Virus record (IMG/VR): IMGVR_UViG_3300033066_001079
Coordinates: 13,017-77,016 of that record
Source: a virus
Taxonomy: Duplodnaviria; Heunggongvirae; Uroviricota; Caudoviricetes
Length of the DNA: 64,000 bases
Direction: 5' to 3' (one strand)
Position 1 is the first letter of the stretch, and every line of letters starts with the position of its first letter. A program made the translations under genes and the position numbers. The notes under the pieces were generated by a model that ran no database searches, was not told the DNA's origin, and saw only the letters and a list, made by a program, of their open reading frames with translations. Of this stretch, positions 3,690-38,917 are shown piece by piece.

Positions 3690-3699
3690 AGAGGCGATC

Positions 3700-18900: not shown

Positions 18901-21833
18901 TCTACATTTAGATTATTGACAAAAGTGATAGAGCTTACAGAGATATTGTTCGCCGGAATGAAGTTCCAAAAAGCTGTTTGAGTATCTACATTGGCATTTG
19001 CTATAGTCGTATTGTTTACAATCTTGATGTTTGAAGCGCTTCCGGCAACTTCGTCAACAAAGCTAAAGCATCCGGCGTAGGGTGCTCCGCCGGGAATAAA
19101 GACATTGCTTGCGATTGTAAGTCCGCTAGTATTGCCTGAGACAAGTATGGCCGCAGCGTTGGCTCCTGATTCGAATATATTGGCGTCCATTCGAATATCT
19201 GTAGAAGAGAAAAGCGAGTTGGTTCCCTTGGCTATTCTGCATCCATAAATGCTTGAATCTACAATGTTCTTTAGCTTGAAACAACCATATGTAATTTTAG
19301 GATATCCGTAGATATCTAAGTCGTCTGACTCTTCTGCGTTGTATTCGAAATCGCAAAACTGAATAGACAGCAATGACGAAGTGATAAAATTGAACCCGAA
19401 AGTAAAAGCCCAGTCCTTATTAGAAACTACAGCGATCTTATCATTATCTCCAAATATGCAGCCATTCATAACAACAGAAGTACCACCTGTCATTTCTACA
19501 ATGGTATTGTTAGAGCTATGAAACCGACACTGGTTGAAGTATACCTGCTCCATAAACTCACCTAGAACAGCTTGATCTAGGTTTTTGAATGTACAATTAG
19601 TAAATGTTGTATTTCTAGGACCAATAGATTCGTAAAGATCGCATCCTCTCAATAGAGAAGTAGTTTCGCTTCCTTGGGCATGGTCGTCGTCATCAAAATC
19701 AAATGTAGCATTTGCGCCAAACTGTATGTTTTGGAAATGAACATTCTTAGCATTGATGTTATCTGTAACAAAGAGCGGAAGAGGTTCTGTCCTTGAAAAA
19801 GAACTGTTCGCATGAACTACTACGCCGCCAGTCTCAAGAGTTCGGATTATCACGTTCGGACTATTTATGGCGACTGTACCGCCTAGTGGCAATGTTTGAT
19901 CGTCAGTTGCGTTTGACTTTACTATGTCAAAGATTACCTTACCCTCTGGCTTGTTGTTATCCATCCAAGTCACTGCGTCTTGCATGGTTTGAAACGTATT
20001 TGCAGGCGGCGTTTGCTCTGCCATAATAACCGGAACTCTGGTCCACTCATCAAAGTTGTTTGTAGGATAGTCGTTTACAATAGGCGCTGTAACTGTTTTA
20101 GTAGTTGTGGCCGTAGAACTAACCTTACCATTATGCCATATCTTTAACGTTATCGTAAATGGAGTTCCACCGTTCGCATGCCAGTATGTATAAGCCGCTG
20201 ATATGCCTCTCTGCTTTGAACTTAGCGAGGTATTTCTGATTGCATTTCCATCAGAATCTTGTTTACCATCTACTCGACTATCTGCAAAATAAGTATAGTT
20301 ACGAACATTTGAAGGCGGAGAATTGTCTCCAAAATCCCATTCAAATACGCAGTCTTGTTTGCTTACTCCATTAAATGTGCTGTCATTAGCTGAAACATAA
20401 AGAGTATACGGATACACTTGTTCCGCATCTGACAATACAGTTATAACAGGACTTGGCGTATTATAAAACGTGGTATTGCCTGCTGATGCTTGAGAGAAAG
20501 ATTCCCACCACTCTTGACCAAGTACATAACTTGTCCACTCGTCGCCATCAATATCGTTTAGATATGCATAGTTTTGATCGAATGGCTCTTCTTTTACGTT
20601 AATGACTGGATCGCCAAGGTATTCAGAATCAGAAAGGTCGATTCCGTCAACAGTTGGCTTCTTTACAAGAATCTGGAAACGTTGTCTAGTCGCCCACGGA
20701 GGGCTTGAAGAGTCGTCTCCGTTAGTTACGTTGAACAAGAAGCTTTTTAGACCGCTATCCCACTCCACCGTAACCGTACCAGTCGTAAATGGAATAGGAT
20801 CTGGCTTTGGCGAAGGATCTAGTATTTGAGTTTGCAAGGCAGACTCAAGCGTAACCGCTACTTCTGTCATTGAAGAAGCGCCCATAGTATTGATTCCCTG
20901 TATTAGATACTCAATATTATGAATCTTGACAGAAAAAGCTCCTGAATCTACGTTTTTCCATGATCCGAGTACGTCTTCTTCTTTTTCTCCGCTTGGGAAA
21001 TATCTAAACCTTCCTCTTTGATAGCTTACGCCTAGTCCGCCTCGAAGAATAATACCGTCAGCGCTAGCGGACATTTCAGATAGACAACTATTCATGAAGC
21101 TAACATTTACTGGCTGCCCAATGTATATATCAGTTTCAGAATGATACATAGATGTCATGGCAAAGATTGGCTTGCCATTTGCTATGTCTCTTGTAAACGA
21201 AATCTGGTTTTTGGCAAAAAGACTCCATTCATAAGTAGCAGAATCGCCATTGCCCTTATATCCGTAAACTTGAGGTACGAAGAAATCGCAGAAATCAGAA
21301 ATTGGCCTAGATACATAAACTCCACCAGAGAGTCGCTTATTACAACGATTCTTGGCGGCTAAATAGGCGGTATAGTTTTCATTAAAAAGCGGATCGCTTG
21401 GATTGCTGATATAGTTCGTTATCGTTTCGTAGTCGTCGCTAAAGGACGGAAAAGCAGCAAATCCAATCATCAAGTCAGGACGACTGCTGGCAACCGCTCT
21501 TGCCTTGGCAGTTGTGTATATGTTCTCAAAAGCCTGAAGAGTTGCGTCTACTTCAGAGTCTTGGTAGTTACGAATGTCATACTTTATATGACTGCCAGTA
21601 ACTTCAAAAATCAACATATCCGTGCCTTCGGCTATAGCGCTGATGACACACTCATTGATCAGGTTGGTATCAAGCAAATATGTAAGCTTGTCGCTAAATA
21701 GATTGCTAGTTACAACCTTTGCAAAATGCATTCCATAGGAAGCTTTGAGAGAAGCCGCACTAGGAGCATTGGTAAATCCAAAAGCTTGTATATACTTGAA
21801 CGACATTCTTCCTGCTCTCCTAGCCCATAGCAC
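15984..21833 (-). CDS. giant tail fibre/tailspike-like protein with beta-helix segments and C-terminal FN3 domains
   Basis: 1949-aa ORF. It has repetitive N-x-T/S-rich beta-helix-like stretches (NCTFKNLDQA, VNNTTIANANVDT) and a C-terminal FN3 (YIVYRARIV...YYYKIIAYDVYGNASSPAS). It ends inside the start of another FN3 (APTNVSASADISHGRIRIAWN). Confidence 0.6.
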   Translation of the reverse strand: MLWARRAGRMSFKYIQAFGFTNAPSAASLKASYGMHFAKVVTSNLFSDKLTYLLDTNLINECVISAIAEGTDMLIFEVTGSHIKYDIRNYQDSEVDATLQAFENIYTTAKARAVASSRPDLMIGFAAFPSFSDDYETITNYISNPSDPLFNENYTAYLAAKNRCNKRLSGGVYVSRPISDFCDFFVPQVYGYKGNGDSATYEWSLFAKNQISFTRDIANGKPIFAMTSMYHSETDIYIGQPVNVSFMNSCLSEMSASADGIILRGGLGVSYQRGRFRYFPSGEKEEDVLGSWKNVDSGAFSVKIHNIEYLIQGINTMGASSMTEVAVTLESALQTQILDPSPKPDPIPFTTGTVTVEWDSGLKSFLFNVTNGDDSSSPPWATRQRFQILVKKPTVDGIDLSDSEYLGDPVINVKEEPFDQNYAYLNDIDGDEWTSYVLGQEWWESFSQASAGNTTFYNTPSPVITVLSDAEQVYPYTLYVSANDSTFNGVSKQDCVFEWDFGDNSPPSNVRNYTYFADSRVDGKQDSDGNAIRNTSLSSKQRGISAAYTYWHANGGTPFTITLKIWHNGKVSSTATTTKTVTAPIVNDYPTNNFDEWTRVPVIMAEQTPPANTFQTMQDAVTWMDNNKPEGKVIFDIVKSNATDDQTLPLGGTVAINSPNVIIRTLETGGVVVHANSSFSRTEPLPLFVTDNINAKNVHFQNIQFGANATFDFDDDDHAQGSETTSLLRGCDLYESIGPRNTTFTNCTFKNLDQAVLGEFMEQVYFNQCRFHSSNNTIVEMTGGTSVVMNGCIFGDNDKIAVVSNKDWAFTFGFNFITSSLLSIQFCDFEYNAEESDDLDIYGYPKITYGCFKLKNIVDSSIYGCRIAKGTNSLFSSTDIRMDANIFESGANAAAILVSGNTSGLTIASNVFIPGGAPYAGCFSFVDEVAGSASNIKIVNNTTIANANVDTQTAFWNFIPANNISVSSITFVNNLNVENSSYCVSRWIAIDKLNQFSALKANIWPSRRSDMEFAIADGATKTWSQWKSSKETDATQMNVAVTELPSFFRYKLSYPSYLPLFLQATENPASARDYNDSPKNVFASRVVGAAIPIYVAPSLSSSGFTSTTTIKTRTRSAMSSCQNAFVQVVDPDSTTLDSSGSSVTKPLIKQINSTVSDILKFTTTDANLNASRAFRIKYTGDENSAYIAASFGIMTVSSVDTFVARFIDKDNIPHTLAEIAIADYSLVKELVQAIGIALDGVGVTAQVLGTDEVPTSDLRNTESLEDGYNRWGVCYLQENSVTLGNWIHTSVSVSTVSTGYDLTIVYTNDGPSVQNQGDIAQRMGSLSFDGLYMGRIFAEVDNTNASTAFERRTILGSYDGTPATYPFQKFSPTHNLFNETHAVGICMQQNFVQDKRLTSVSTTAIGDTGYASNVVFGWYGETQADSLNYVNKDCLAYGESYTVKVSVRFSRNPKSWVTTLSPYKSYFAQTFGAVTYMKDPRPVWPAITAVASNGQPLYYQSSYDPANTNPAVHGWAWWANNIKNNYKNLGYERQFMFSPSGLYWNRNVWNYPFSTLAPLFDTTNSYPQSSAGPYTDSCLTKVGDTCIGGSFTVAPSLLKGSLFLLRDAIQEIPVFGFYQGHASVVSPKWNPAYTDLARIADMSNSTTLQYAKSELDLMSYYIKSNILGLDSYFDGFEDLSQSQAYIALVKSLHPHLKLMVNPSPNDVTSLGSMSFLSSYDSSGPITGPHILAEYITPGSEQVAWVYVTNIANTLGSSVSGPMIKNQMASLASWGYCTGPFLDDNNHPANISTETDLFLAADRRFVYDTKPSEYQLLATPSNIMTSISDALVNATYQMRRQCIAITWRQNTEPDFSHYIVYRARIVNGIADLTKPYHAKAYLKSSSFVDNQVFSEKTYYYKIIAYDVYGNASSPASFSVKYIADDPILNAPTNVSASADISHGRIRIAWN

Positions 21834-21902: not shown

Positions 21903-21937
21903 AAAAGAAAATACCCAGAAGCCTCAGACTTCTGGGT
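21903..21937 (-). terminator. rho-independent terminator downstream of dut
   Basis: On the minus strand a 9-bp stem (ACCCAGAAG/CTTCTGGGT, loop CCTCAGA) is followed by ATTTTCTTTT. Confidence 0.55.
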
Positions 21938-21963
21938 ACGAGAAAAACTCCGTCTTTCCTCTA

Positions 21964-22512
21964 TCAATTCCCGCTTGAACCAAAGCCTCCGGTTCCTCTG
22001 CTGGAATCCGCAAGCTCTTGGACTTCCCAAAACTTACCCTCTTCTGTTCGGATAATAACAAGTTGGGCTATCTTGTCACCCTTCTTGTATGTTTTTATGT
22101 CTGGCGGAATAGGACGGTGAGCAAAAACTTGACCTGTTTCTTTGTTATGATAGAAATGATCAACAGGCTTAAACCTGACAAGAAGCTCGCCTCGATACCC
22201 ATTGTCCACAAGTCCAATGCTATTAGCTAGAACTAAATCGTACTTACTTATGCTTGAACGGGGCCAAATCTGAGTATGAAAACCTTCAGAAGGTTCTATA
22301 GCCAAGCCTGTACGATACTGCATATATCCGTCATCAGATACAGTACCATTGTCAATGGCTACCAAATCATATCCTGCATCTCCCTCTTTAGCTCTTGCCG
22401 GGAGAACTGCGTCTGGGTGTAGTTTTTGAACTTTTATCTTGCACTTCTTAAAGACTTCTAACGCTACCGGATCTGCCATGTTCTTCATTCGTCTTCCTTT
22501 CTTTATCCACAC
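21964..22512 (-). CDS. dut: dUTP diphosphatase (dUTPase)
   Basis: Motifs DAGYDL, PRSS and GLVDNGYRGEL are present. The true start is probably an internal ATG at 22488 or 22479, with AAAGGAAGA upstream. Confidence 0.85.
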   Translation of the reverse strand: MWIKKGRRMKNMADPVALEVFKKCKIKVQKLHPDAVLPARAKEGDAGYDLVAIDNGTVSDDGYMQYRTGLAIEPSEGFHTQIWPRSSISKYDLVLANSIGLVDNGYRGELLVRFKPVDHFYHNKETGQVFAHRPIPPDIKTYKKGDKIAQLVIIRTEEGKFWEVQELADSSRGTGGFGSSGN

Positions 22513-25025
22513 TTGCTACTTCCGCAACCCTTACAAGTCATACATCCTTCTTGGCGGATTACTTCGGTGCTTCCGCAGCTTTCGCATGTATAACCGCTAA
22601 CCTTCGTTCCGTCTGCAATGTACTTCTTCAAAACCCTTGCCATAGCCTTACCGAAGTTTGTCATATCTCCCGGAGACTTTTCAAGCTGATCAACAACATA
22701 GCTGATGTCTGAACCGTGTCGCAATGACAGGCTCAAAAGGCGAGTAATTACAGCTTGTTCGTCTGTAAGCAAATCGCATAGGTTTTCTACAGTAGTGCCG
22801 TCTTCGGCTTCCAAAACATAATGACCTCTCTTATGCTTGAGTAGCGTACCCTTCTTTGCATGGGTAATGCAGCCATTGCGACCAGCAAAGACCTCGTAAG
22901 GATTACCGTCCAATAGACCAACGATAACAAAGAAGTCTTCGCCTCTAGACTTGGTATGATGAATGTCGCAAGAAAGAGCCTTCGGACGCTTAGGAGCATG
23001 AGTCTTCTGGATCGTTTCTTTTTTCTTCGTACCGACCGCAACAAGAACTCCGTCTCTACAGCCTTCTCGGTAAACCGTGAAACCCTTGCAGCCTTTCTCC
23101 CAAGCTCTCATGTAGACTTGAGCAACAACTTCCTTTGGACAATCATTAGGAACATTGCAAGTCTTGCTGATAGCATGGCATACCCACTTTTGGGCTGCGG
23201 CTTGAAGATCTACGCTTGCTACCCAATCAACATCATTAGCTGTTGCCTTGTAATAAGGAGAGTCTTTGTAGAACTCAAGATCGTCTACGCTCTTGTATTC
23301 TGCCGCCTTTGACTCGTCAAAGGTGTGACCGTTGACTTGCATCCATGTCTTGAAGTGGTGATGGAAAACAGGATAGGCCTGCCACTTGTCTCCCATGTCG
23401 TCAACTCGGTCAACTCTCGTGTTCTGATCGTTGGGGTTGATTTTCTTCCAACGAAGATAGAATACCATGAATGCAGACTCAATTCCGCTGGTAGATTGAG
23501 TTAGAGTAGATCCTGAACCAACGGGAGCGGTAGTGGTGTTAGCAATGTTGCGACGGCCATACTTCTGGTAAAGTTCATACACGTCCGGAGCGGCGTCCCA
23601 AATTCTTTGCAAGAATGGATGACCCTTCTCAAGGGCTGCATTCCAAATAGGGAATGGGCCTCGTTCCTTTGCCAAAATACAAGAAGAACGGTACGAGCCA
23701 ATAGCCAAAGTCTTGTATATAGCCTCGGTTATATCAATGGACTCCTTCGAGCCATAGCGAACTCCCAAAGCAGCTATAGCGTCTCCTAGAGCCGTAATTC
23801 CAAGCCCTGTACGACGACCATTGACGCACGCCTCTCGGATGTTATGCCACATCTTTCGCTCGGCATACTTGGCGTCCTCTGTCTCAGGGTCGGAATCAAT
23901 TTTGGCAATAATCTTGTCGATTTGCTCAATCTCAATGTCGATCATGTCGTCCATAAGACGCTGAGCAATCTCCGCAATCTTCTCGAACTTCTCGAAGTCA
24001 AATCGAGCATTCTTGGTAAACGGATTGATAACAAACGAGTAGAGATTGATGCATACTAAGCGGCAAGAGTCGTATGCGCTAAGAATGATTTCTCCGCACG
24101 GATTCGTGGATATGCTCTCATATCCATACTGCTTGTAAATATCAGATGGAGTATACTTCTGCGCAGTATCCCAAAACAATATTCCGGGTTCAGCGCTTTG
24201 CCAAGCTGCGTCAATGATTTCGTTCCAAATAGCAGTAGCGTCTTCAAGAGCGGTTATCTTTGGAGTCTTTGAATTGACAGGCCAACGAAGCTCAACATTG
24301 GTTGAATTCTTAACTGCATTCATGAACTCGTCAGACAAGCGAATAGAGATGTTCGCCCCTGTTACTTTCTTCTTGTCTTTCTTGATGTTGATAAATGTAC
24401 GGATCTCAGGATGGTGCGAGGAGATCGAAAGCATCAAAGCTCCGCGACGACCATTCTGAGCTACTTCTCTACAGGTGTTTGAGAAGCGATCCATGAACAC
24501 GCCAATACCGTCAGTGGTTCTAGCTGCATTCTTGGTTTCTACGCCTTTTGGCCTAATTTTACTGATATCGAAGCCAACGCCGCCTCTTCGCTTCATAATC
24601 TGAGCTTGTTCTTGATCGGTCTTGAGGATGCCTCCATAGCTATCTTCAGGCGATGGAACAACAAAGCAGTTAGAACACGATTGTATTTGATAATCATTGC
24701 CAATGGCACTCATAGGAGAGCCTTGAGGAATGATCCATTGAAACTGATCGAAGTAAGAAAAGATTTCTTCTTCGCTCAACGGATTGGCGTACTTTTTCTC
24801 AATTCTAGCAAACTCTTTCGCAAGCCTCCGATGCATCTGACGAGGCGACTTCTCTAAAATGTTTCCTTTGTCGTCTCGCAAGGCGTACTTGCTTATAAAC
24901 ACGCTTGCTGCTAATTCGTCGCCTCGAAAATACTCAACTGATTCCTTGAAAGCTTCTTCGTAAGTGTAAGTCGTCGTTGCTTTATCATTTGTCACCTCGT
25001 CCATAATCATCATTTGCGTCTCCAA
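22503..25025 (-). CDS. nrdJ: ribonucleotide reductase, class II (adenosylcobalamin-type, NrdJ-like)
   Basis: 840 aa with the active-site motif NPCGEI and a C-terminal Cys cluster (CESCGSTEVIRQEGCMTCKGCGSSKCG) typical of monomeric class II RNR. Confidence 0.8.
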   Translation of the reverse strand: METQMMIMDEVTNDKATTTYTYEEAFKESVEYFRGDELAASVFISKYALRDDKGNILEKSPRQMHRRLAKEFARIEKKYANPLSEEEIFSYFDQFQWIIPQGSPMSAIGNDYQIQSCSNCFVVPSPEDSYGGILKTDQEQAQIMKRRGGVGFDISKIRPKGVETKNAARTTDGIGVFMDRFSNTCREVAQNGRRGALMLSISSHHPEIRTFINIKKDKKKVTGANISIRLSDEFMNAVKNSTNVELRWPVNSKTPKITALEDATAIWNEIIDAAWQSAEPGILFWDTAQKYTPSDIYKQYGYESISTNPCGEIILSAYDSCRLVCINLYSFVINPFTKNARFDFEKFEKIAEIAQRLMDDMIDIEIEQIDKIIAKIDSDPETEDAKYAERKMWHNIREACVNGRRTGLGITALGDAIAALGVRYGSKESIDITEAIYKTLAIGSYRSSCILAKERGPFPIWNAALEKGHPFLQRIWDAAPDVYELYQKYGRRNIANTTTAPVGSGSTLTQSTSGIESAFMVFYLRWKKINPNDQNTRVDRVDDMGDKWQAYPVFHHHFKTWMQVNGHTFDESKAAEYKSVDDLEFYKDSPYYKATANDVDWVASVDLQAAAQKWVCHAISKTCNVPNDCPKEVVAQVYMRAWEKGCKGFTVYREGCRDGVLVAVGTKKKETIQKTHAPKRPKALSCDIHHTKSRGEDFFVIVGLLDGNPYEVFAGRNGCITHAKKGTLLKHKRGHYVLEAEDGTTVENLCDLLTDEQAVITRLLSLSLRHGSDISYVVDQLEKSPGDMTNFGKAMARVLKKYIADGTKVSGYTCESCGSTEVIRQEGCMTCKGCGSSKCG

Positions 25026-25118: not shown

Positions 25119-26501
25119 TTATAAGTCTTCCGGATTGATAGAATCCGGTTCTGCGCCAAGGAATTCTTCCAAAGAATTGCCAGACGACTGCGTGAATCCA
25201 AAGCCCTTACCCTTACCTTGCAACTGTGCATAGGAAGAATAATCCTTGTGCTTAACTTCTTTGATCGCTTCGTCAAAGTGTTGCTTCTTGAGAAGGAGTT
25301 TATCTCCTTCAATAGAAGACGCTCGAACAGCAAACATTGCTGTAGTCGTACACAAGTCTTTGATATGCGCGCCAGTCAACCCTTCGAGGGATTCGGCCAG
25401 CTTCTTGACTCTAACCTTCGGATCAAGAATGAAGTTTCGAGTGAACTGTCGAATCATCTTCTCTCGGCCCTTTTCGTCAGGCTTGTCGATCTTGATAAGT
25501 CTATCAAATCGACCGGGACGATTCTTGACAGCATCTTCCAACTCTTCGAGACAGTTGGTTGTTCCGAGAGTGATTACGTCACCGAAGCTCTCGATTCCGT
25601 CCAACTGGTTCATAAGCTCCATGACGAAGCCAGCATTGCCTTGATGCCTGTTCTGAGCGATCCAGTCTATGTCTTCTACAATCAAAAGACATGGGGCCAA
25701 GTCTTTTGCCATATGGCAGACCTTGCGTACTCCGCCTCGATTTGAGGCGAAATCCGTAGGCAAAGCATACAAGACCGAGAAGTTTGCGTCCTTAGCTAGG
25801 CAGCGGCAAACTTGCGTCTTTCCAGTCCCGGGAGGCCCATAAAGGATAATACCTCTCTTAACTGGGAGATTGAATCTCTTGAATGCCTCTCGCATCTCAA
25901 AGAGATCGTTGACGTTAGCTTTGATAACGTCTGTTACTCCGTCAGATAGGATTACGTCGTCCCAAGAAAGATTGTCTAGCTTCAGAAAGCGACAATCGCA
26001 ATCGATCTTCTTTCCCTTGTATAGATTCTTCTCGTCCGCAAGCTTGGTTAGCCCCTGATAGACGTTGCTCTTCTTATCTGAAGAATGGATAGTATAGAAG
26101 AAACCGCCGTTGTGTCCAGCGGTAACTTCCATGACCAACTTCTCTTTAGTCTTCTTGTTCTCGTAGAAGACTGTAGCCTCTTTGTAGGCTCGAATAAAAA
26201 CGTCAGGAGACGTTTCAATCTCCATCATGGTCGGAGGCTGCTGATTGAGGTAGCCGAAGCTTACTTCTTTGACGAGGGTATAGCCATTCGTGTCAAAGAA
26301 CTCTTTCCAGATGTATTGGATCTTGCGATGTTGATAGTCGGAAAGCGTTTCCGAATCGCTTGTCGATCTTTCGGTCGTGCCGAAAAACTCATTGAAGGCG
26401 ACTTCTCTGAGCGTATCCGACTCGGCGCTCATGAGCGCTATAACATAGTCATGAAGAGTACACTCGGAGAGCTTGATGTCTTTGAGAGAGGAGTTTTGCA
26501 T
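25119..26501 (-). CDS. AAA+ ATPase (classic clade) with N-terminal domain
   Basis: Walker A is ILYGPPGTGKTQ, Walker B is LLIVEDIDW and sensor-2 is RPGRFDRLI. It is paralogous to the GC-rich AAA+ at 53694..55409. Confidence 0.75.
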   Translation of the reverse strand: MQNSSLKDIKLSECTLHDYVIALMSAESDTLREVAFNEFFGTTERSTSDSETLSDYQHRKIQYIWKEFFDTNGYTLVKEVSFGYLNQQPPTMMEIETSPDVFIRAYKEATVFYENKKTKEKLVMEVTAGHNGGFFYTIHSSDKKSNVYQGLTKLADEKNLYKGKKIDCDCRFLKLDNLSWDDVILSDGVTDVIKANVNDLFEMREAFKRFNLPVKRGIILYGPPGTGKTQVCRCLAKDANFSVLYALPTDFASNRGGVRKVCHMAKDLAPCLLIVEDIDWIAQNRHQGNAGFVMELMNQLDGIESFGDVITLGTTNCLEELEDAVKNRPGRFDRLIKIDKPDEKGREKMIRQFTRNFILDPKVRVKKLAESLEGLTGAHIKDLCTTTAMFAVRASSIEGDKLLLKKQHFDEAIKEVKHKDYSSYAQLQGKGKGFGFTQSSGNSLEEFLGAEPDSINPEDL

Positions 26502-26551: not shown

Positions 26552-27733
26552 TCAGATATTGTCTTTTTCGTCTCTCGTCTTTGTTGCGTAAAGATGGAAG
26601 AACGGCTCAATCAGCTTGTCAACCGACAACTCGGAACCGTTGGGTTGGCGACGAACAAAGTCAATAACAGCGCACAGCTTATCGTCCAGTGGAACCTTAG
26701 CGGCTCCTGCCCCTCTGCGACCGCCGCCATGCTTCTTTCCAAAGATTCGCTGGACAAACTGCTGAACATTGATTGCCAAGACTTGCGTTCGGAAAGACGC
26801 AATCAAATACTTGGGCTTATCAAATCCGGCGTCAACAAGGCCCATAACAAGAGCGCTGTCAATAGACTCAATCTCAAGCATTTCTTCGCAGAGCTTGGCG
26901 AGCAACGCTCTCTGTTGCGGATTGATAAGACCAACTGATGCAATCGTCAGGTTATTACCGCAGATGATAACATTAGAATATGCTCTACGACGAAGTTCCA
27001 ACAAAGCAAGAGGCTTAGGATAGTCGTAAATCTTTCTCAGAAGCTCAACATCAACCAGACTCTTGAGCGTCTCAAGAGCAACTCTATCGTTCTCTGTTGT
27101 TCCTTCTGACTTTAGATCAGCAGTATCAGTAGAGATTCCCAAGTAAAGCGCTGTTGCCAACGCCTTCATGCCAGTAGCGCCTGCGTCCAAGATCTTGAGA
27201 TCATTCATAATCTCATAGAGAATGGTTGAACAAGAGCCATACGCCTTATGGATGTATACGCAATCAAGAGAAGGGTTAGGCGAGTGGTGATCAATAACCA
27301 CATCGGCCTTGCGATCCTTATCAATGAACGCAGCAATACCTGTATTGTTTTCCTTGCCGAATCCACAGCTAGTATCAACAACAACTACATAGCTCTTTTC
27401 AAGAGCATTTCTAATAAGCTGAGCAGATTCTTCTTCATTATCCTCGTCAATCTCAAGCTTGATGGCGTTGATATTGAGGACATTCATCATAACACTATTT
27501 TGGGTGTAGGGAATTTCTCCGCCGTAGTAGATTGTAGAAGTAAGACCATAGCTATCCGCAATCATAGAAACTGCCATTGCGGAAGCAATACAGTCAGGAT
27601 CGGGTTGGTCATGACAGATAATGGCTACAGAGTTCTTCTGCTTACTTTCAAACAACTTGATAAGACCTTCAGCGGCCTTCTTATCAAGAGTTGTGATTTC
27701 TGACTGTTCCATCGTTGCCAAACCAGCTTTCAT
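26552..27733 (-). CDS. DHH-DHHA1 family phosphoesterase (NrnA-like)
   Basis: DHH motifs are present: ICHDQPDPDC, VVDTS and VVIDHHSPN. The DHHA1 GGGH-like motif is KHGGGRRGAG. The ATG overlaps the upstream stop as ATGA. Confidence 0.7.
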   Translation of the reverse strand: MKAGLATMEQSEITTLDKKAAEGLIKLFESKQKNSVAIICHDQPDPDCIASAMAVSMIADSYGLTSTIYYGGEIPYTQNSVMMNVLNINAIKLEIDEDNEEESAQLIRNALEKSYVVVVDTSCGFGKENNTGIAAFIDKDRKADVVIDHHSPNPSLDCVYIHKAYGSCSTILYEIMNDLKILDAGATGMKALATALYLGISTDTADLKSEGTTENDRVALETLKSLVDVELLRKIYDYPKPLALLELRRRAYSNVIICGNNLTIASVGLINPQQRALLAKLCEEMLEIESIDSALVMGLVDAGFDKPKYLIASFRTQVLAINVQQFVQRIFGKKHGGGRRGAGAAKVPLDDKLCAVIDFVRRQPNGSELSVDKLIEPFFHLYATKTRDEKDNI

Positions 27734-28383
27734 AGTAATCGTCCTAATCTCACCAAATGAGGCTCTTTATTGGCCTTTGTTCGCTCGATAGCTTCCTCTA
27801 ATCCTATTCGAGGCCAATAAGGAACATCGCCACAATTCAATACGGGAATAGGGCATTCACGGTTCACCCATTCCATTGCTCCTAGAAAATTCGCTAGCGT
27901 CTGATCAGAATGATGTTTATTGATTCCATAGAAGTCAGTCCTGTCGCTTTTGTATTTGCAATCGACACCGAGAAATACAATGGCAGAACAACCTAAAGCA
28001 TTTGCTAGCTGAGCAGATAAAGCGGCTGTACATCCGCCTCCGTGAAGAATGGCAGGATTATGACAAAACCTAAAAGGCCCATGCACTAGCTCGAAATGAC
28101 TAAACAATCCCTCAGAGTCGATATCTCTTCTTGTTATTTTCGCGCACCCAAGAGTTCTCAAATCCTCATAACAATCGTCATGCAAAGACTCGTCCTGCCA
28201 CATCAATATGGTAGGAAGCAACAATCGGAACGCTCGATTTATGCCAATGGTAAACAACCCGTCTAGTAGATCTAGGTTGTTCTCTGTCAAAGAAGGCCCA
28301 TTACCGATAACAAAAGCAACTTCGCCTCGAAGCCGATTGCTCCATGCGTTCACTGGGAACTTGGTTGACTTTCTAAAGTTCAT
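27730..28383 (-). CDS. GT42/DUF115-like (sialyltransferase/Maf-fold) protein, paralog 1
   Basis: Motifs GNGPSL, TIGINR, ILMWQD and GGGCTAALSAQLANALGCSAIVFLGVDCKY align with Campylobacter Cst-II (AGNGPSL...FRCNQ...CAVAIALGYKEIYLSGIDFY). The start is placed at the ATG at 28383, which forms an ATGA overlap with the upstream stop. The ORF-track start at 28401 would overlap by 22 nt. Confidence 0.55.
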   Translation of the reverse strand: MNFRKSTKFPVNAWSNRLRGEVAFVIGNGPSLTENNLDLLDGLFTIGINRAFRLLLPTILMWQDESLHDDCYEDLRTLGCAKITRRDIDSEGLFSHFELVHGPFRFCHNPAILHGGGCTAALSAQLANALGCSAIVFLGVDCKYKSDRTDFYGINKHHSDQTLANFLGAMEWVNRECPIPVLNCGDVPYWPRIGLEEAIERTKANKEPHLVRLGRLL

Positions 28384-29069
28384 ACAAGAAACTGATTCCA
28401 ATACTCTCGGCTCTGCTTATGCTTCTGGTCCAGAGACGCAACAACTTCTGCAAGAGGCTTCCGTTCAAAATAGTCATTATCCGAACAACTGATAATCTTA
28501 CGAATACCCTTATCGTGAACTTCCGTCCTTGCCCATTGCAATCCTGCTACGCATTGCGGCATGGTATTCGGACTATGGAATCTATTTACACCATAGAAAT
28601 CCGTATCAGAGCCTCTGTGTTTGCAGTCAGACCCCAATATGATAATCGGATTACAACCGAGTATATATGCAAGCTGAATAGCCAAAGGCCCGCTAGCTCC
28701 ATGCCCATGCAAAACATCTACGCTTTGAGGCAGAGCAAAAGGACCGGCTTCTAAACGGAAATGCGCAAAACGGTTCTCTGGATCTCCCACAGCAGTACAA
28801 AACTTGATAGCCTTAGTTTCTACAACTTCATGTCTCTCGGTGTACCAGAGTCCGAGATCTTGCCACATGAGGATTGTACTATCAAGCTTCTTAAACGAGC
28901 GATTTATCCCGATTGTAAAATAAGAAGACAAAGAGGCAACGTCCTCGTCGTTTAGGGACGGCCCATTGCCCAGCACGAATGCTGGTACATCAATGAGCTT
29001 ATCCTTCCACTTACGGACATCGCCTCTTTGTCTTACCGAAGAATACCTTAATGGACGGCCACCGCTCAC
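28380..29069 (-). CDS. GT42/DUF115-like (sialyltransferase/Maf-fold) protein, paralog 2
   Basis: Motifs GNGPSL, TIGINR, ILMWQD and GHGASGPLAIQLAYILGCNPIIILGSDCKH. The start is placed at the GTG at 29069, which forms a GTGA overlap with the HNH stop. The ORF-track start at 29174 would overlap the HNH gene by 109 nt. There is no in-frame ATG before the conserved region. Confidence 0.5.
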   Translation of the reverse strand: MSGGRPLRYSSVRQRGDVRKWKDKLIDVPAFVLGNGPSLNDEDVASLSSYFTIGINRSFKKLDSTILMWQDLGLWYTERHEVVETKAIKFCTAVGDPENRFAHFRLEAGPFALPQSVDVLHGHGASGPLAIQLAYILGCNPIIILGSDCKHRGSDTDFYGVNRFHSPNTMPQCVAGLQWARTEVHDKGIRKIISCSDNDYFERKPLAEVVASLDQKHKQSREYWNQFLV

Positions 29070-29683
29070 ACAGGTACTCCAAACGGGTTTCCCTCGACCT
29101 TGATGAACTTCTCCCATGATTCCGGGATGTTTGCTGAAGCCAATCGAGCAAAACGAGCGTACACAGGACTCCACTTAGGCTTGACCGGCTGCTTGAGCAG
29201 CTTTAGTCCAGCTTCCTGAGGAGTACGGTCAGCCTTTTGCGCATTCACATCCAAGCAGCACATGACCAGATTTTCCCATGTAGAATTTCCACCCTTTGAT
29301 CGAGGGCGAACATGGTCAATAGTCGCCGTGTCCATTGAGATCGGCTTGCCAGTGTACTGACAAGTAAAGTTGTCTCGAATGAGCAGGTTACGACGAGTGA
29401 GCTTTACCTCACGATGCGGCAACCTGTCATAGTCAGACAAGACAATGATTTCTGGGACTCGGATTTGCTGGTTTGCAGACTGAATGAAACGCTCTCCGTC
29501 ACGAACAGGAAGCTTCATCCACTCTTCAAAATCATAGAGAACGTAGTCCTCATCCATGATCTTTGCGAGATCGCTGAGAACCTTCGTCACAGCCTTCTTG
29601 ACAGGCATGATGGAGATTGCTGTCCAGCCCTTGTTTAGGACTAGAGTAGGCAGGTTTACAGATGAACGTAGCTTCGTGGTCAT
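29066..29683 (-). CDS. HNH endonuclease
   Basis: HNH motif: TIDHVRPRSKGGNSTWENLVMCCLDVNAQK. The start overlaps the macrodomain gene stop by 4 nt. Confidence 0.8.
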   Translation of the reverse strand: MTTKLRSSVNLPTLVLNKGWTAISIMPVKKAVTKVLSDLAKIMDEDYVLYDFEEWMKLPVRDGERFIQSANQQIRVPEIIVLSDYDRLPHREVKLTRRNLLIRDNFTCQYTGKPISMDTATIDHVRPRSKGGNSTWENLVMCCLDVNAQKADRTPQEAGLKLLKQPVKPKWSPVYARFARLASANIPESWEKFIKVEGNPFGVPV

Positions 29684-30204
29684 GACTGATTCTCTATCGG
29701 GATGCTAAGACATTTTTTGAAAGCCTCAATGAAATCTTCGTTGGTATCTACTACCTGTATCTTGATTCGCTGATCGTACTCCTGCGCTACGACAGCCATT
29801 CGGTGCGCAACTTCCGTCTTATCCAAACCGCCAATGCCGCACCCAAGGCCGCCGAAGGCAATGGACTGTAGGCCACTTGCAATGGCTTTGTCTAGTACCC
29901 GACGAAGAAGATTTGGTATCGTGCCTAAAGAAGTTCGTCCTCCCGGAAACTGCATGGTGACAGCATGATAGATATACGTTACACCTCGACGCTTCAATAA
30001 TCCTGCATCAGAAACGTAAACGTCGCCTACTTGGAACGGACCCTCTTGTTCAATAACTTTTCCGACATTTTCACGAAGCAGGTCGCCACCTGAACGAGCA
30101 ATAGCGCCCGCTACGCCAGCGCCCATAACGCCAATGCCGTTGGCAGCATTGACGAGGGCATCGACGTTCTCGACTTTGGTGAGGTCGCCTACGAAAACCT
30201 TCAT
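29680..30204 (-). CDS. macrodomain protein (ADP-ribose binding/hydrolase fold)
   Basis: DALVNAANGIGVMGAGVAGAIARSGG matches the macro-domain signature (NAAN...GGGVAGAI). 174 aa, stand-alone. Confidence 0.8.
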   Translation of the reverse strand: MKVFVGDLTKVENVDALVNAANGIGVMGAGVAGAIARSGGDLLRENVGKVIEQEGPFQVGDVYVSDAGLLKRRGVTYIYHAVTMQFPGGRTSLGTIPNLLRRVLDKAIASGLQSIAFGGLGCGIGGLDKTEVAHRMAVVAQEYDQRIKIQVVDTNEDFIEAFKKCLSIPIENQS

Positions 30205-30221: not shown

Positions 30222-31037
30222 TTACGCTTGCAGTATACTCACAAGTCCGCTCATGTACTCTGGGTTCAAAGTGACTTTTTTCTGGAGCCGCTCAAGAATC
30301 TTGGCATGCATCTGGCTAATGCGGGATTCGCTGTAACCAGTTTCGGCAGCGATCTCTTTCATAGTCATATCGCCGTAGTAGTGCATATGGATAATCTTGC
30401 GCTCAAGAGGAACAAAGTTCTTTCCCAAAAGCTTCTTGAACATCTCTTCCTTGACCACCTTCCCCAAAGGGTGCCGGTCATTGGTAGTTACGCTCTCGAT
30501 CTGAAGCTCTTCCCCGCCATCGGTAGAATGAGATCCGCCAGCAAACATGCTCACACATCCGATTGGATTTGCCTTAGAAGCCATTTCCAAGTATTCGTCT
30601 ACGGAAAGGTTAAGAGCAGCAGCCACTTCGTCGTCATTGGGAGTGCGACCAAGATCGCATTCAAGCTGGTGCTTAGCCTTCTGAATCTTGCCATATCGCT
30701 GACGGACAAGACGAGGAACCCAATCCACCTGACGAATGTTATCGAGGATAGAACCTCGGATTCTGTGAATAGCGAACGTCTCGAACTTGTTCTTTAGATC
30801 TGGGTCGAAGCGGTCAACGGCATGATAGAGGCCGTCCGTTCCCCACGAAACAAGATCGTCAATATCAACTTCACGAATCTTCTTGTGCATACGCTCCGCC
30901 ACCTTTGTAACAAGTGGGTAGTATATCTCAAGAAGCTCATTACGAGCCTTGACATAGATAGGGTCTTCTTTTTCGTGCTTAGAACGGATGGCAACAAAAT
31001 CAGACCACTTCTGGCTAAGCTTCTCAGGGGTAAGCAT
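30222..31037 (-). CDS. RNA polymerase sigma factor, sigma-70 family (group 3-like)
   Basis: Region 2 is LVSWGTDGLYHAVDRFDPDLKNKFETFAIHRIRGSI. Region 4 HTH is MTMKEIAAETGYSESRISQMHAKILERLQ. SD AAAAAGGAG lies upstream. Confidence 0.75.
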   Translation of the reverse strand: MLTPEKLSQKWSDFVAIRSKHEKEDPIYVKARNELLEIYYPLVTKVAERMHKKIREVDIDDLVSWGTDGLYHAVDRFDPDLKNKFETFAIHRIRGSILDNIRQVDWVPRLVRQRYGKIQKAKHQLECDLGRTPNDDEVAAALNLSVDEYLEMASKANPIGCVSMFAGGSHSTDGGEELQIESVTTNDRHPLGKVVKEEMFKKLLGKNFVPLERKIIHMHYYGDMTMKEIAAETGYSESRISQMHAKILERLQKKVTLNPEYMSGLVSILQA

Positions 31038-38285: not shown

Positions 38286-38571
38286 GCCTAGGTAGCTCGT
38301 CAATAAATAGCAGTTTTCTGCCAACCGCTTGATATTCAAGCGATCTTCTTATTGGCTCTACCATAGACGCAGCAAGAGCGTTCCTGCCCTCTTCTGTTTC
38401 AAGAGCTATTGAAATAATCCGTTCTTTATCAGCGTCCGTCAAAGGCTTTTTAGCAACTTTGACAGGTTCGACTTTAGGCGTTAGTAATGAGCCGACCTTG
38501 GAGATGATCAAACTCGTGCTGGAAACAGCGAGCAGACAACCTAGAAAGGTTCTTCTTGAAAGTTTTGCCAT
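38272..38571 (-). CDS. small protein with twin-arginine (Tat) signal peptide
   Basis: N-terminus MAKLSRRTFLGCLLAVSSTSLIIS contains the S-R-R-x-F-L-G Tat motif followed by a hydrophobic core. ATG with GAGG upstream. It overlaps the 3' end of def by 98 nt in another frame. Confidence 0.4.
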   Translation of the reverse strand: MAKLSRRTFLGCLLAVSSTSLIISKVGSLLTPKVEPVKVAKKPLTDADKERIISIALETEEGRNALAASMVEPIRRSLEYQAVGRKLLFIDELPRPKQY

Positions 38572-38917
38572 CTAATCCCTTTGCCTCAATAGAAATGTTC
38601 TTGAAACGGCGAACATTCTTCTTCACACCCGGTATCGACAAACAGCCCTCTTCTTCCACTTCGCTTCCAGAAGTGTGAAGGATTTTCGGGTTGATGTAGA
38701 CTTGGGGCAGAGGCATCTCATTAGGGATATACATTACAAACATCTGAACAGATAGGCCTACCTGAGGAGCAGCAAGTCCTATTCCGTTGTTTTCGAGCAT
38801 GATCTGAATCATGCGATCTGCTATCAACTTTGTCTGGTCAGTAATCTCTACAGGGATAGCAACCTGCTTGAGTACATCAGAGGGAGCAATAACAAGAGTT
38901 AGATCTTTTGGACTCAT
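38474..38917 (-). CDS. def: peptide deformylase
   Basis: Motifs GIGLAAPQVG, EGCLSIPG and QHEFDHLQG. The start is re-set to the ATG at 38917 (MSPKDL...), which forms an ATGA overlap with the upstream stop. Confidence 0.75.
   Translation of the reverse strand: MSPKDLTLVIAPSDVLKQVAIPVEITDQTKLIADRMIQIMLENNGIGLAAPQVGLSVQMFVMYIPNEMPLPQVYINPKILHTSGSEVEEEGCLSIPGVKKNVRRFKNISIEAKGLDGKTFKKNLSRLSARCFQHEFDHLQGRLITNA

What the first reader, a model, noticed from the sequence alone, without database searches (positions are those of the whole stretch)
26552..30204. Translationally coupled operon macrodomain - HNH - two GT42/DUF115-like paralogs - DHH/DHHA1 phosphoesterase
Five consecutive genes are linked by 4-nt overlaps: ATGA at 29680/29683, GTGA at 29066/29069, ATGA at 28380/28383 and ATGA at 27730/27733. 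The two central paralogs share GNGPSL, TIGINR, ILMWQD and an (A)L(G)C-x-IIxLGxDCK(Y/H) block that aligns with the Cst-II/Maf sialyltransferase fold (AGNGPSL...SGIDFY). They are flanked by a stand-alone macrodomain and an NrnA-like DHH-DHHA1 phosphoesterase.

Two readings are possible. One is a glycan-modification module that transfers nonulosonic acids to phage or host surface proteins, as Maf enzymes do for flagellin, together with a GT4 and a pyruvyl transferase elsewhere. The other is an anti-defence module. The macrodomain would remove ADP-ribose marks or bind ADPR-derived signals. The DHH enzyme would degrade pAp, nanoRNA or cyclic-oligonucleotide immune signals. The DUF115 fold is also used by MptE-type pyrophosphokinases. 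Neither combination is a described phage system as far as I know.
Basis: partly seen in the sequence, partly recalled or inferred. Interest (0 to 1): 0.7.

Follow-up and report, generated by a model that had tools for sequence, protein, structure and literature searches.

The report
Conserved huge-phage cassette with Maf-like glycosyltransferases
The five overlapping genes are real, but they are the variable middle of a longer operon (sigma factor to dUTPase) conserved in an uncultivated lineage of large and huge phages; its near-constant element is a small sialyltransferase/Maf-fold enzyme whose target is unknown, not a five-part glycan or anti-defence machine.

Summary
Macro, HNH, two PF01973/DUF115 paralogs (37% identical) and a DHH/DHHA1 enzyme lie on the minus strand and are joined by ATGA/GTGA/ATGA/ATGA overlaps.

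The five genes are not a self-contained unit. They sit inside a co-directional array: sigma-70-like factor, the five genes, an AAA+ ATPase, class II RNR and dUTPase. The only strong terminator follows dUTPase.

Among 57 non-redundant cassettes from viral and metagenomic contigs (up to about 550 kb; those with a complete sigma-to-RNR interval were 17 kb or longer), all of which were retrieved through the DUF115 gene:
- HNH is present in 96%.
- Macro is present in 88%; in 3 loci a BNR sialidase-like gene sits in that slot.
- A second DUF115 gene, and DHH, are each present in only 32%.

The glycosyltransferase reading of the paralogs rests on four results:
- The sister clade of paralog B lies directly behind phage nucleotide-sugar gene clusters.
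- One distant cellular relative lies beside a CMP-sugar synthetase gene and another beside a sugar aminotransferase gene.
- The A-type proteins are basic, and several relatives carry K/R-rich tails.

Glycosyltransferase function is therefore favoured over pyrophosphokinase function, about 0.6 to 0.2. Donor and acceptor are unknown. Macro, HNH and DHH are ordinary family members and are separable. No isolated phage carries the cassette and no paper in the library describes it.

The parts
30222..31037 (-). Sigma-70-family factor (271 aa); first gene of the conserved array, 17 nt upstream of macro
   Evidence: Pfam Sigma70_r2, r3 and r4, 1e-11 to 1e-13. phrog_351, 4.5e-32. It defines the 5' boundary in all 57 cassettes; being part of the selection criterion, its presence there is not an independent result.
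29680..30204 (-). Stand-alone macrodomain (174 aa) of the AF1521/TTHA0132-like type
   Evidence: Pfam Macro 3.3e-24. The closest solved structure is TTHA0132, 8e-19. DarG models score 46 bits against a cut-off of 250. Present in 50 of 57 cassettes.
29066..29683 (-). HNH endonuclease (205 aa): a conserved N-terminal domain plus an IscB/Cas9-type HNH core
   Evidence: HNH_5, HNH_4 and HNH. phrog_16726, 2e-30. PDB IscB/Cas9d HNH domains, 6e-11. D123, H124, N138 and N147 are invariant. Present in 55 of 57 cassettes.
28380..29069 (-). DUF115/PF01973 paralog A (229 aa, GTG start): a single-domain Maf/Cst-II/MptE-fold enzyme; the element of the cassette retained in nearly all cassettes
27730..28383 (-). 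DUF115/PF01973 paralog B (217 aa): an anciently diverged second transferase
   Evidence: PF01973 4.9e-9, above the cut-off. 37% identical to A. Its clade is sister to the copies that lie behind nucleotide-sugar clusters in other huge phages. A second DUF115 gene is present in 18 of 57 cassettes.
26552..27733 (-). DHH/DHHA1 phosphoesterase (393 aa), NrnA/GdpP/TmPDE-like
25119..26501 (-). AAA+ ATPase (460 aa, classic clade); an optional member of the same array
   Evidence: Pfam AAA 9e-21. NCBIfam PAN/Cdc48/FtsH-like, about 1e-40. PADLOC IetA 6e-24. Present in 26 of 57 cassettes.
22503..25025 (-). Class II (B12-dependent) ribonucleotide reductase; the conserved 3' neighbour of the cassette
   Evidence: Synteny. 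Phage hits are annotated as vitamin B12-dependent RNR.
21964..22512 (-). dUTPase; last gene before the terminator
   Evidence: Pfam dUTPase 2.3e-18. Conserved after RNR in the related loci.
21911..21939 (-). The only strong intrinsic-terminator-like hairpin on the minus strand in 21.5-33.5 kb (13-bp stem followed by a T-run); probable 3' end of the transcription unit
   Evidence: The other terminator-like hits have stems of 5-8 bp, and the total number of hits is at chance level.

Best explanation
The five genes are the centre of a longer co-transcribed early/metabolic array: sigma-70-type factor, macro, HNH, DUF115-A, DUF115-B, DHH/DHHA1, AAA+, class II RNR, dUTPase, terminator. This array is the conserved backbone of an uncultivated lineage of large to huge phages.

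Shown:
- Every cassette examined (all were retrieved through this gene family) carries at least one small (about 220-240 aa), single-domain PF01973 enzyme between sigma and RNR, and the A-type copies are basic.
- Its fold is closest to the catalytic core of Maf and Cst-II-type sialyltransferases.
- HNH, macro, a second DUF115 gene, DHH and AAA+ are present in 96, 88, 32, 32 and 46% of cassettes.

Inferred for the paralogs:
- Both are nucleotide-sugar-dependent glycosyltransferases.
- The most likely donor is a CMP-activated ulosonic or nonulosonic acid supplied by the host, for example CMP-Kdo in a Gram-negative host. For the B type, sugars made by phage pathways are also possible.
- They decorate an intracellular acceptor during infection. 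The basic N-termini and K/R-rich tails in relatives suggest a polyanionic partner: nucleic acid, or an acidic protein, membrane or glycan.
- A is the lineage's core enzyme. B is an old second transferase that was moved next to A in this clade.

Inferred for the other three genes: they are separable companions, not steps in one glycosylation pathway.
- HNH is a conventional DNA nuclease for host takeover.
- The NrnA-type DHH enzyme turns short oligonucleotides or pAp into mononucleotides. With the nearby RNase T exonuclease, this feeds RNR, dUTPase and ThyX.
- Macro binds or hydrolyses ADP-ribose derivatives, as the stand-alone macrodomains common in jumbo phages are thought to do.
For: Gene structure and overlaps. 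Domains. Terminator only after dUTPase.

Synteny: conserved from about 30 to 80% identity in viral and metagenomic loci. Frequencies in 57 non-redundant cassettes. The family is essentially viral; the genome collection gave one close hit, on a 21-kb contig of a MAG.

Glycosyltransferase rather than pyrophosphokinase:
- Foldseek top hits are sialyltransferases.
- The motif layout GNGPS / N56 / Q70-D71 / G.G(S/A)(S/T)G / G.DC / Y159-G-x-N162-xx-H165 lines up with the CMP-sugar site segments of Cst-II (weak, E 0.5).
- The B clade is sister to copies that lie directly downstream of aldo-keto reductase, three NAD-dependent epimerase/dehydratases, RmlC, RmlA, a B12-radical SAM enzyme and a fused cytidylyltransferase-like/APS kinase enzyme. 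It is also found in tandem with a GT29-like gene.
- One distant cellular relative lies next to a PF02348 cytidylyltransferase, a SIS-domain protein and a GT4; another lies next to a DegT aminotransferase.
- A BNR_2 sialidase-like gene sits between sigma and HNH in L026, L027 and L101, where no macro gene was detected.

Basic character: mean pI 9.5 and net charge +6 in the first 30 residues for the A clade; long K/R-rich tails in the sugar-cluster clade and in P0120.

DHH: two-domain NrnA-type fold and conserved catalytic motifs. RNase T and ThyX lie nearby. Macro: AF1521/TTHA0132-like. Macrodomains occur in 56% of jumbo phages (PMC9503650).
Against: - No enzymatic or structural-ligand evidence exists. 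The donor, the acceptor and even the reaction class are inferred.
- Sequence similarity to Cst-II is not significant (E 0.5). Paralog A is below the Pfam cut-off.
- MptE is also a strong structural match, with the lower rmsd (2.5 A).
- No CMP-sugar or nonulosonic acid biosynthesis gene was found in the 64-kb window.
- The sugar clusters beside the sister clade are of the dTDP/NDP-sugar type, which is not the donor class of GT42/Maf enzymes.
- HNH accompanies DUF115 in 96% of cassettes, and every HNH orthologue of at least 47% identity whose ORF was called lies in such a cassette. This could mean a real functional pair, contrary to my 'separable' reading.
- The BNR case is one clade of three loci.
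- Tight linkage across a vertically inherited lineage cannot separate function from ancestry.
Confidence: 0.5

Rival explanations
1. Restriction-modification-like takeover acting on DNA. The DUF115 enzyme(s) glycosylate phage DNA, which would be a new hypermodification. The adjacent HNH nuclease destroys unmodified host DNA, and the products are recycled through DHH, RNR, dUTPase and ThyX.
For: - HNH and DUF115 are adjacent in 55 of 57 cassettes.
- Every cassette-type HNH (at least 47% identity) whose ORF was called is followed by a DUF115 gene, while DUF115 can occur without HNH, which is the pattern expected for a modifier and a nuclease.
- The A family is basic, and relatives carry long K/R-rich tails typical of nucleic-acid binders.
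- In L054-L057 the sister clade lies among DNA/RNA-associated genes: lysine-rich small proteins, RlaP and a topoisomerase IA-like ORF.
- The cassette lies in the nucleotide-metabolism region.
Against: - The window has no hydroxymethylase, TET/JBP enzyme or other generator of an acceptor group. It has only ThyX, dUTPase and a Dam methylase.
- No GT42/Maf-fold enzyme is known to act on DNA (my own knowledge).
- The HNH family is common in bacteria and in other phages that lack any DUF115 gene.
- Basic pI also fits membrane or acidic-glycan association, as in Cst-II.
Confidence: 0.12
2. Counter-defence module centred on NAD/ADP-ribose and nucleotide signals. Macro removes ADP-ribose marks or degrades ADPR-derived signals. 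DHH degrades cyclic or linear oligonucleotide messengers. The DUF115 proteins act as MptE-type pyrophosphokinases, for example activating ADP-ribose for NAD+ rebuilding in the manner of NARP1.
For: - In 21 related loci a NAPRTase-family gene, and in 13 a NadE gene, lie divergently just upstream of sigma.
- Macro scores weakly against DarG models.
- DHH phosphodiesterases and macrodomains of jumbo phages have been proposed as counter-signalling enzymes (PMC7824862; PMC9503650).
Against: - Maf is the better and longer structural match.
- The gene contexts of the sister clade and of two distant cellular relatives are sugar-nucleotide pathways, not NAD pathways.
- There are no PADLOC hits for the paralogs or DHH.
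- The window itself has no NAPRTase.
- The cassette is inherited vertically at a fixed position over deep divergence, unlike typical fast-turnover anti-defence genes.
- DHH is absent from 68% of cassettes and macro from 12%.
Confidence: 0.13
3. Virion or host-surface glycosylation. The DUF115 enzymes transfer nonulosonic acids to phage structural proteins or to host envelope glycans, working with the GT4 and pyruvyl transferase elsewhere in the genome. Possible purposes are immune or receptor masking, or superinfection exclusion.
For: - The fold and the contexts of distant cellular relatives are as in the best explanation.
- A DUF115 relative lies among genes that look structural in L066 (read by eye only).
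- Distant DUF115 genes occur in flagellotropic Caulobacter and Brevundimonas phages, where they are annotated as sialyltransferase.
- The window encodes a GT4 and a pyruvyl transferase.
- Jumbo-phage glycosyltransferase clusters have been proposed to remodel host polysaccharides (PMC7824862).
Against: - The gene lies in the sigma/RNR early-metabolic unit, not in a structural or envelope cluster.
- Surface-remodelling glycosyltransferases are sporadic and polymorphic, whereas this one is a fixed core gene.
- The proteins lack the N- and C-terminal domains of Maf (217-229 aa against 632 aa).
- The GT4 and pyruvyl transferase are 22 kb away, on the other strand, in a low-GC island.
Confidence: 0.15

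Closest known systems
Maf (motility accessory factor) flagellin nonulosonic-acid glycosyltransferases; PF01973 central domain; PDB 5MU5
   Different: The phage proteins are only the catalytic core, 217-229 aa against about 630 aa, and lack the flanking N- and C-terminal domains. No flagellin or nonulosonic acid biosynthesis genes are nearby. They lie in a sigma/RNR operon of a phage. Sequence identity is 14%.
GT42 sialyltransferases Cst-I and Cst-II of Campylobacter jejuni (PDB 1RO7/1RO8, 2P56)
   Different: The profile-to-sequence match is not significant (E 0.5). Equivalence of the catalytic His188 and Tyr156/Tyr162 could not be established. The target of Cst-II is lipooligosaccharide; the target here is unknown.
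MptE, the archaeal 6-hydroxymethyl-7,8-dihydropterin pyrophosphokinase (PDB 8SD5), and thiamine pyrophosphokinases
   Different: Only 144 residues align; the subdomain shared with Maf is missing. There is no folate or pterin gene context. The gene contexts of relatives are sugar-nucleotide pathways.
NrnA/Pde2/TmPDE/GdpP-type DHH-DHHA1 phosphodiesterases (COG0618)
   Different: About 25-30% identity to cellular members. The GGGH motif reads GGGR. There is an extra C-terminal helix (368-392). The clade is specific to this phage lineage. The substrate has not been tested.
Stand-alone macrodomains of jumbo phages and AF1521/TTHA0132-type bacterial and archaeal macrodomains
   Same: Macro 3.3e-24; TTHA0132 8e-19. 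The NAAN, GAGVAGAI and GCGIGG ADP-ribose-site motifs are present (alignment). Macrodomains occur in 56% of jumbo phages (PMC9503650).
   Different: It is not DarG: 46 bits against a cut-off of 250. It lacks the Asp/His pair of the MacroD type at the aligned positions (read from the sequence). No partner ADP-ribosyltransferase was seen in the window.
T4-type DNA glucosyltransferases with host-DNA nucleases (analogy only)
   Same: A sugar transferase is a fixed early gene beside nucleotide-metabolism genes and a nuclease.
   Different: The fold is unrelated (GT-B or GT-A against Maf/GT42-like). No hydroxymethylase was found in the window. DNA as the acceptor is entirely hypothetical.

Membership tests
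PF01973 (MptE-like / DUF115 / Maf_flag10) superfamily | Match to the family HMM at or above the gathering score (34.6 bits) | tested here: met
   Paralog B scores 36.6 bits. Paralog A scores 31.2 bits, just below the cut-off. 118 of the 120 listed homologues of A carry a precomputed PF01973 hit.
PF01973 (MptE-like / DUF115 / Maf_flag10) superfamily | Rossmann-like fold of Maf, Cst-II and MptE, with an N-terminal GxGPS nucleotide loop | tested here: met
Maf flagellin glycosyltransferase | Three-domain architecture (about 600-700 aa) and linkage to flagellin and nonulosonic acid biosynthesis genes | tested here: not met
   The proteins are 217-229 aa and consist of the core domain only. No flagellin, NeuB/PseI or NeuA/PseF genes were found in the window.
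GT42 sialyltransferase (Cst-I/Cst-II) | Significant sequence relationship, with the catalytic His and the two phosphate-binding Tyr residues in place | tested here: inconclusive
   Profile against PDB sequences gives E 0.5. Invariant Y159 and N162 and near-invariant H165 lie in the corresponding segment, but the alignment is not reliable enough to assign equivalence.
GT42/Maf-type enzymes | Transfer from a CMP-activated ulosonic or nonulosonic acid donor | not testable with these tools
   Needs enzyme assays. There are only contextual hints.
MptE 6-hydroxymethyl-7,8-dihydropterin pyrophosphokinase | Pterin/folate pathway context and pyrophosphokinase active site | tested here: not met
   No folate or pterin genes lie in the cassette or in the loci of relatives. 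The structural match is shorter than the match to Maf. The active site could not be mapped.
Macro domain (PF01661) | HMM match above the cut-off and ADP-ribose-site motifs | tested here: met
   85.6 bits against a cut-off of 22. The alignment to TTHA0132 shows the NAAN, GAGVAGAI and G(C/T)G(I/V)GG motifs.
DarG antitoxin macrodomain | NCBIfam equivalog score of at least 250 bits and a DarT partner | tested here: not met
   46.4 bits. No DarT-like gene was seen among the ORFs that were scanned.
HNH (beta-beta-alpha-Me) nuclease | HNH HMM match and conserved catalytic D-H...N...N residues | tested here: met
   HNH_5 40 bits, HNH_4 36 bits, HNH 34 bits. D123, H124, N138 and N147 are invariant in 20 homologues.
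DHH/DHHA1 subfamily 1 (NrnA/GdpP/RecJ-core) | DHH domain with motifs I-IV | tested here: met
   51 bits against a cut-off of 28.1. D45, D47, D120 and D148-H149-H150 are invariant and D203 is conserved in at least 90% of sequences.
DHH/DHHA1 subfamily 1 (NrnA/GdpP/RecJ-core) | C-terminal DHHA1 domain with the GGGH motif | tested here: inconclusive
Described phage counter-defence systems (NARP1/2, Acb1, Apyc1, Tad1/2) | Presence of their signature proteins | tested here: not met
   No NAPRTase/Namat-like gene in the window by tblastn. No Prs-like, Acb1 or other such family among the Pfam, PHROG and PADLOC results for the five proteins. A 2H-SAK domain gene lies 19 kb away.

The most novel reading that the evidence does not exclude
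The small basic DUF115 enzymes are nucleic-acid glycosyltransferases. They would write a previously unknown sugar hypermodification, possibly an ulosonic acid or a phage-made deoxy-sugar, on the DNA (or RNA) of a whole lineage of huge phages. The co-inherited HNH nuclease would act as the matching 'restriction' arm that clears unmodified host DNA for nucleotide recycling.
Probability: 0.12. Interest if true: 0.85.

Novelty: new variant of a known kind. Interest (0 to 1): 0.45.

Why it matters
Huge phages are known almost only from metagenomes, and most of their conserved genes have no assigned role.

This analysis defines a fixed cassette, sigma - (macro) - HNH - DUF115 - ... - RNR - dUTPase, in at least 57 distinct phage genomes. 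Every cassette retrieved contains a minimal Maf/sialyltransferase-fold enzyme, and no isolated phage carries the cassette.

If the enzyme is a glycosyltransferase, as argued, it is a lineage-wide, early-expressed glycosylation step with an unknown intracellular target. It would also be the smallest natural form of the Maf catalytic core, which is of interest for glyco-engineering. If the target is nucleic acid, it would be a new class of phage DNA modification.

The analysis also serves as a caution. Translational coupling and an attractive set of domains do not make a 'system'; comparative genomics shows which of the five genes are separable.

Tried and rejected
- **DNA similarity of the region to 50,697 phage records.** No match.
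- **tblastn against the phage records.** Paralog A and macro gave no match. Paralog B gave only weak hits to Caulobacter and Brevundimonas phages and to LR756500. DHH matched only three unannotated gut phage contigs.
- **NCBIfam and PADLOC.** Nothing for either paralog. PADLOC gave nothing for DHH.
- **Contexts of HNH homologues.** Tunturi_5 and the 595-kb phage LR756511 were uninformative. Bacterial homologues of 198 aa are isolated chromosomal genes.
- **Family II pyrophosphatase idea for DHH.** It arose from the NCBIfam N-domain hit. I rejected it because the whole protein aligns with NrnA-type two-domain structures.
- **DHH strictly coupled to paralog B.** Rejected: L091 and L092 have an A-type gene plus DHH only, and L008, L011 and L090 have A plus B without DHH.
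- **The paralogs as a recent tandem duplication.** Rejected by the tree, in which B groups with the sugar-cluster clade.
- **Promoter scan.** At chance level.
- **tRNA genes in the window.** None.
- **AFDB Foldseek library.** Unavailable.
- **Literature searches** for MptE-like or DUF115 plus phage, macrodomain/HNH/jumbo phage, phage-encoded nonulosonic acid, and huge phages plus sialyltransferase. No description of this cassette was found.

Full report
**1. Observation**

The minus strand of 26552-30204 carries five ORFs:
- macro: 29680-30204, 174 aa
- HNH: 29066-29683, 205 aa
- DUF115 paralog A: 28380-29069, 229 aa, GTG start
- DUF115 paralog B: 27730-28383, 217 aa
- DHH: 26552-27733, 393 aa

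The GTG start of A agrees with an independent gene call, P0001, which is 100% identical and 229 aa. A GGAG lies 11 nt before that GTG, and AAGGGAGG precedes the macro ATG. No Shine-Dalgarno sequence precedes the ATG of B, which fits termination-reinitiation.

The two paralogs are 37% identical, E 7e-46, and share the quoted motifs. Four-nt overlaps are frequent in this window, 11 of 49 same-strand pairs, so only the run of four is mildly unusual. In relatives the junctions are short gaps or overlaps rather than conserved ATGA.

**2. Domain identities**

Pfam results:
- Macro: 3.3e-24.
- HNH_5, HNH_4, HNH: 1e-8 to 4e-10.
- PF01973 'MptE-like': 2.3e-7 for A (31.2 bits, below the 34.6 cut-off) and 4.9e-9 for B (36.6 bits, above it).
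- DHH: 2e-13.
- DHHA1: 0.007.

PHROGs place both paralogs in phrog_4603, annotated 'alpha-2,3-sialyltransferase' (3e-14 and 1e-9), and place HNH in phrog_16726. NCBIfam and PADLOC have nothing for the paralogs. Macro reaches only 46 bits against the DarG model, whose cut-off is 250. For DHH, NCBIfam gives only N-domain hits and PADLOC gives nothing.

The closest solved sequences are TTHA0132/AF1521-type macrodomains (8e-19), IscB/Cas9d HNH domains (6e-11), and TmPDE, NrnA and CnpB for DHH (about 3e-4).

**3. Structures**

Foldseek ranks ST8SiaIII, Cst-II and HPPK together at about E 1e-3. A profile search of PDB sequences finds only Cst-II, at E 0.5. The extra roughly 55 residues that align with Maf but not with MptE favour the glycosyltransferase branch.

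In A1, sixteen positions are invariant apart from the hydrophobic L67: N35, P37, G54, N56, Q70, D71, G122, G124, A134, C139, C149, Y159, G160, N162 and T169. G34, S38, D148 and H165 are conserved in at least 90% of sequences.

**4. The unit is larger than five genes**

Upstream, 17 nt away and in the same orientation, is a sigma-70-family gene (30222-31037). Downstream follow an AAA+ ATPase (25119-26501), a class II RNR (22503-25025) and dUTPase (21964-22512). The only strong terminator-like hairpin on this strand, with a 13-bp stem, lies at 21911-21939, just after dUTPase. Promoter-like hits are at chance level.

**5. Comparative genomics**

- Paralog A has 183 homologues, all unnamed and from metagenomes, on contigs up to 502 kb.
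- Scans found 60 loci in IMG/VR and 80 in JGI metagenomes.
- Among 185,579 reference genomes there was one close hit, on a 21-kb contig of a MAG. The remaining hits are distant DUF115 proteins.
- Gene tables and my own labelling show one architecture across 30-80% identity: sigma - macro - HNH - DUF115 - (DUF115) - (DHH) - (AAA+) - RNR - dUTPase.

In 57 non-redundant complete cassettes:

| Component | Cassettes | Share |
|---|---|---|
| HNH | 55 | 96% |
| Macro | 50 | 88% |
| Second DUF115 | 18 | 32% |
| DHH | 18 | 32% |
| AAA+ | 26 | 46% |

Other points from the cassette survey:
- The window's five-gene form occurs in 15 cassettes.
- Two cassettes are just sigma-DUF115-RNR.
- L059-L061 keep only the B type, and L091/L092 have an A-type gene plus DHH.
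- At least one DUF115 gene is always present, though this follows from how the loci were retrieved. The other components are separable.
- Searching from the HNH side, every orthologue of at least 47% identity whose ORF was called lies in such a cassette.
- More distant HNH relatives are scattered through other phages and through bacterial chromosomes as isolated genes.

**6. Evidence on the chemistry of the DUF115 proteins**

An NJ tree places all syntenic A copies in one clade. The syntenic B copies are sister to a clade found elsewhere in huge phages (L054-L057, L064). One of those phages, on a 548-kb contig, has both an A cassette (L052) and such a copy (L054).

These copies lie directly downstream of variable nucleotide-sugar gene sets:
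- aldo-keto reductase, three NAD-dependent epimerase/dehydratases and RmlC (L054);
- RmlA (L056), followed by RmlD- and RmlB-like genes read by eye;
- a B12-radical SAM enzyme (L055);
- a fused cytidylyltransferase-like/APS kinase enzyme, probably a PAPS synthase (L057).

In L064 the copy is in tandem with another DUF115 gene and a GT29-like sialyltransferase.

Two distant cellular relatives were examined. The one in Marinicaulis (L075) lies beside a PF02348 cytidylyltransferase (the CMP-ulosonic acid synthetase family), a SIS-domain protein, a GFO/IDH/MocA oxidoreductase and a GT4. The one in a Desulfuromonadales MAG (L077) lies beside a DegT aminotransferase and LuxC/LuxE-type genes.

In L026, L027 and L101 no macro gene was detected, and a 324-328-aa BNR_2 sialidase-like protein lies between sigma and HNH (5.6e-13 for L026; 44% identity among the three).

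**7. Acceptor**

Nothing identifies the acceptor. The A family is basic, with mean pI 9.5 and +6 net charge in the first 30 residues. The sugar-cluster clade has about 60-aa K/R-rich tails and pI 10.1. P0120 has a 160-aa K/R/E-rich extension.

This suggests a polyanionic partner. Combined with the HNH linkage and the nucleotide-metabolism setting, it keeps a DNA-modification reading alive. However, the window has no hydroxymethylase or TET-type gene. It has only ThyX, dUTPase, an RNase T exonuclease and a Dam methylase.

**8. The companion genes**

- **HNH.** It has intact catalytic residues and belongs to a family of more than 1,299 members. It is a generic DNA nuclease.
- **DHH.** It is an NrnA-type enzyme. 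Next to RNR, dUTPase, ThyX and RNase T, the simplest role is converting short oligonucleotides or pAp to mononucleotides. A role against cyclic-nucleotide signals, as proposed for jumbo-phage DHH enzymes (PMC7824862), is not excluded.
- **Macro.** It is one of the stand-alone macrodomains found in 56% of jumbo phages (PMC9503650). In the single-DUF115 clade, a NAPRTase-family gene (21 loci) and NadE (13 loci) lie divergently upstream of sigma. This weakly hints at an NAD/ADP-ribose theme in the neighbourhood, but the window lacks these genes.

**9. Comparison with what is known, and novelty**

Each protein belongs to a known superfamily, but none passes the tests for a specific characterised family (Maf, Cst-II, MptE, DarG, NrnA equivalog). 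No isolated phage in INPHARED carries the cassette. The nearest database phages by RNR are unannotated huge-phage assemblies, LR756500 and LR745206. No paper in the library describes the cassette.

I rate it a new variant of a known kind: a minimal Maf-core transferase fixed as a core early gene of a huge-phage lineage, with variable macro, HNH and DHH companions.

**10. Verdict**

The glycan-type chemistry of the paralogs is favoured. The five-gene 'system' and the anti-defence reading are not supported.
- Interest is moderate (0.45).
- The most novel reading that the evidence does not exclude is nucleic-acid glycosylation paired with the HNH nuclease, at a probability of about 0.12.

Noticed in passing
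window 41005-41583 (-): A 192-aa HIGH-motif nucleotidyltransferase (Pfam CTP_transf_like, 7e-15). By eye its sequence closely resembles phosphopantetheine adenylyltransferase (CoaD), which is an unusual gene for a phage.
   Followed up: no
window 38474-38998 (-): Peptide deformylase (2.6e-40). It is also present in the related locus L008.
   Followed up: no
window 9891-12920 (-): A 1009-aa protein interrupted by an intein with a LAGLIDADG domain. The orthologue in L008 carries the MJ0330_N domain and two inteins. The RNR genes of several related loci are also split by inteins.
   Followed up: partly
window 2700-4974 (+): Polysaccharide pyruvyl transferase (1.2e-17) and a GT1/GT4 glycosyltransferase lie on the opposite strand in a low-GC (0.41) island. 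This looks like a separately acquired glycan module, 22 kb from the operon.
   Followed up: partly
window 6770-7363 (-): A 2H-SAK (2H phosphoesterase) domain protein, a family linked to RNA repair and cyclic-nucleotide processing. L010 has a LigT/Acb1-like gene in its flank.
   Followed up: no
window 25119-26501 (-): A classic-clade AAA+ ATPase with an unassigned 170-aa N-terminal region. It matches PADLOC IetA (6e-24) and PAN/Cdc48/FtsH models. It lies between DHH or DUF115 and RNR in 46% of cassettes.
   Followed up: partly
L005-L007, L025-L029, L031-L033, L037-L041, L043, L045, L049, L050, L052: A NAPRTase-family gene (21 loci) and a glutamine-dependent NAD synthase, NadE (13 loci), lie divergently just upstream of the sigma gene in the single-DUF115 clade. 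This indicates phage-encoded NAD+ synthesis next to the macro gene.
   Followed up: partly
L026 6121-7101, L027 6305-7279, L101 4381-5367: A BNR_2 (sialidase-like beta-propeller) protein of 324-328 aa lies between sigma and HNH in three related loci, where no macro gene was detected.
   Followed up: yes
L054-L057 (about 7.8-11.2 kb in each locus): A conserved block in 220-550 kb phages. Variable nucleotide-sugar genes are followed by a B-type DUF115 with a K/R-rich tail, an 84-aa Cys-rich protein, a lysine-rich protein of about 155 aa, RlaP, and a 71-aa protein. A topoisomerase IA-like ORF follows in L056 and L057. L057 also has a fused cytidylyltransferase-like/APS kinase enzyme.
   Followed up: partly
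L085-L087: Bacterial 198-aa HNH homologues, 48-51% identical to the phage HNH, are isolated chromosomal genes. They lie among Ser/Thr kinases, sulfatases, ECF sigma factors and PEP-CTERM proteins. These contexts look like Planctomycetota or Verrucomicrobiota, which is a weak hint about the donor or host phylum.
   Followed up: no
window 53688-55409: A GC-rich patch (0.53 against about 0.45) with long ORFs on both strands: 526 aa on the plus strand and a 571-aa AAA ATPase on the minus strand.
   Followed up: no
window 15984-21833 (-): A 1949-aa protein with a weak DUF3383 match lies directly after the terminator. It is absent from this position in relatives such as L008, so it is probably an insertion between dUTPase and the conserved roughly 600-aa protein.
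   Followed up: no
window 63210-63992 (-): A D12-class N6-adenine DNA methyltransferase (5e-14). It is the only DNA-modification enzyme recognised in the window.
   Followed up: no
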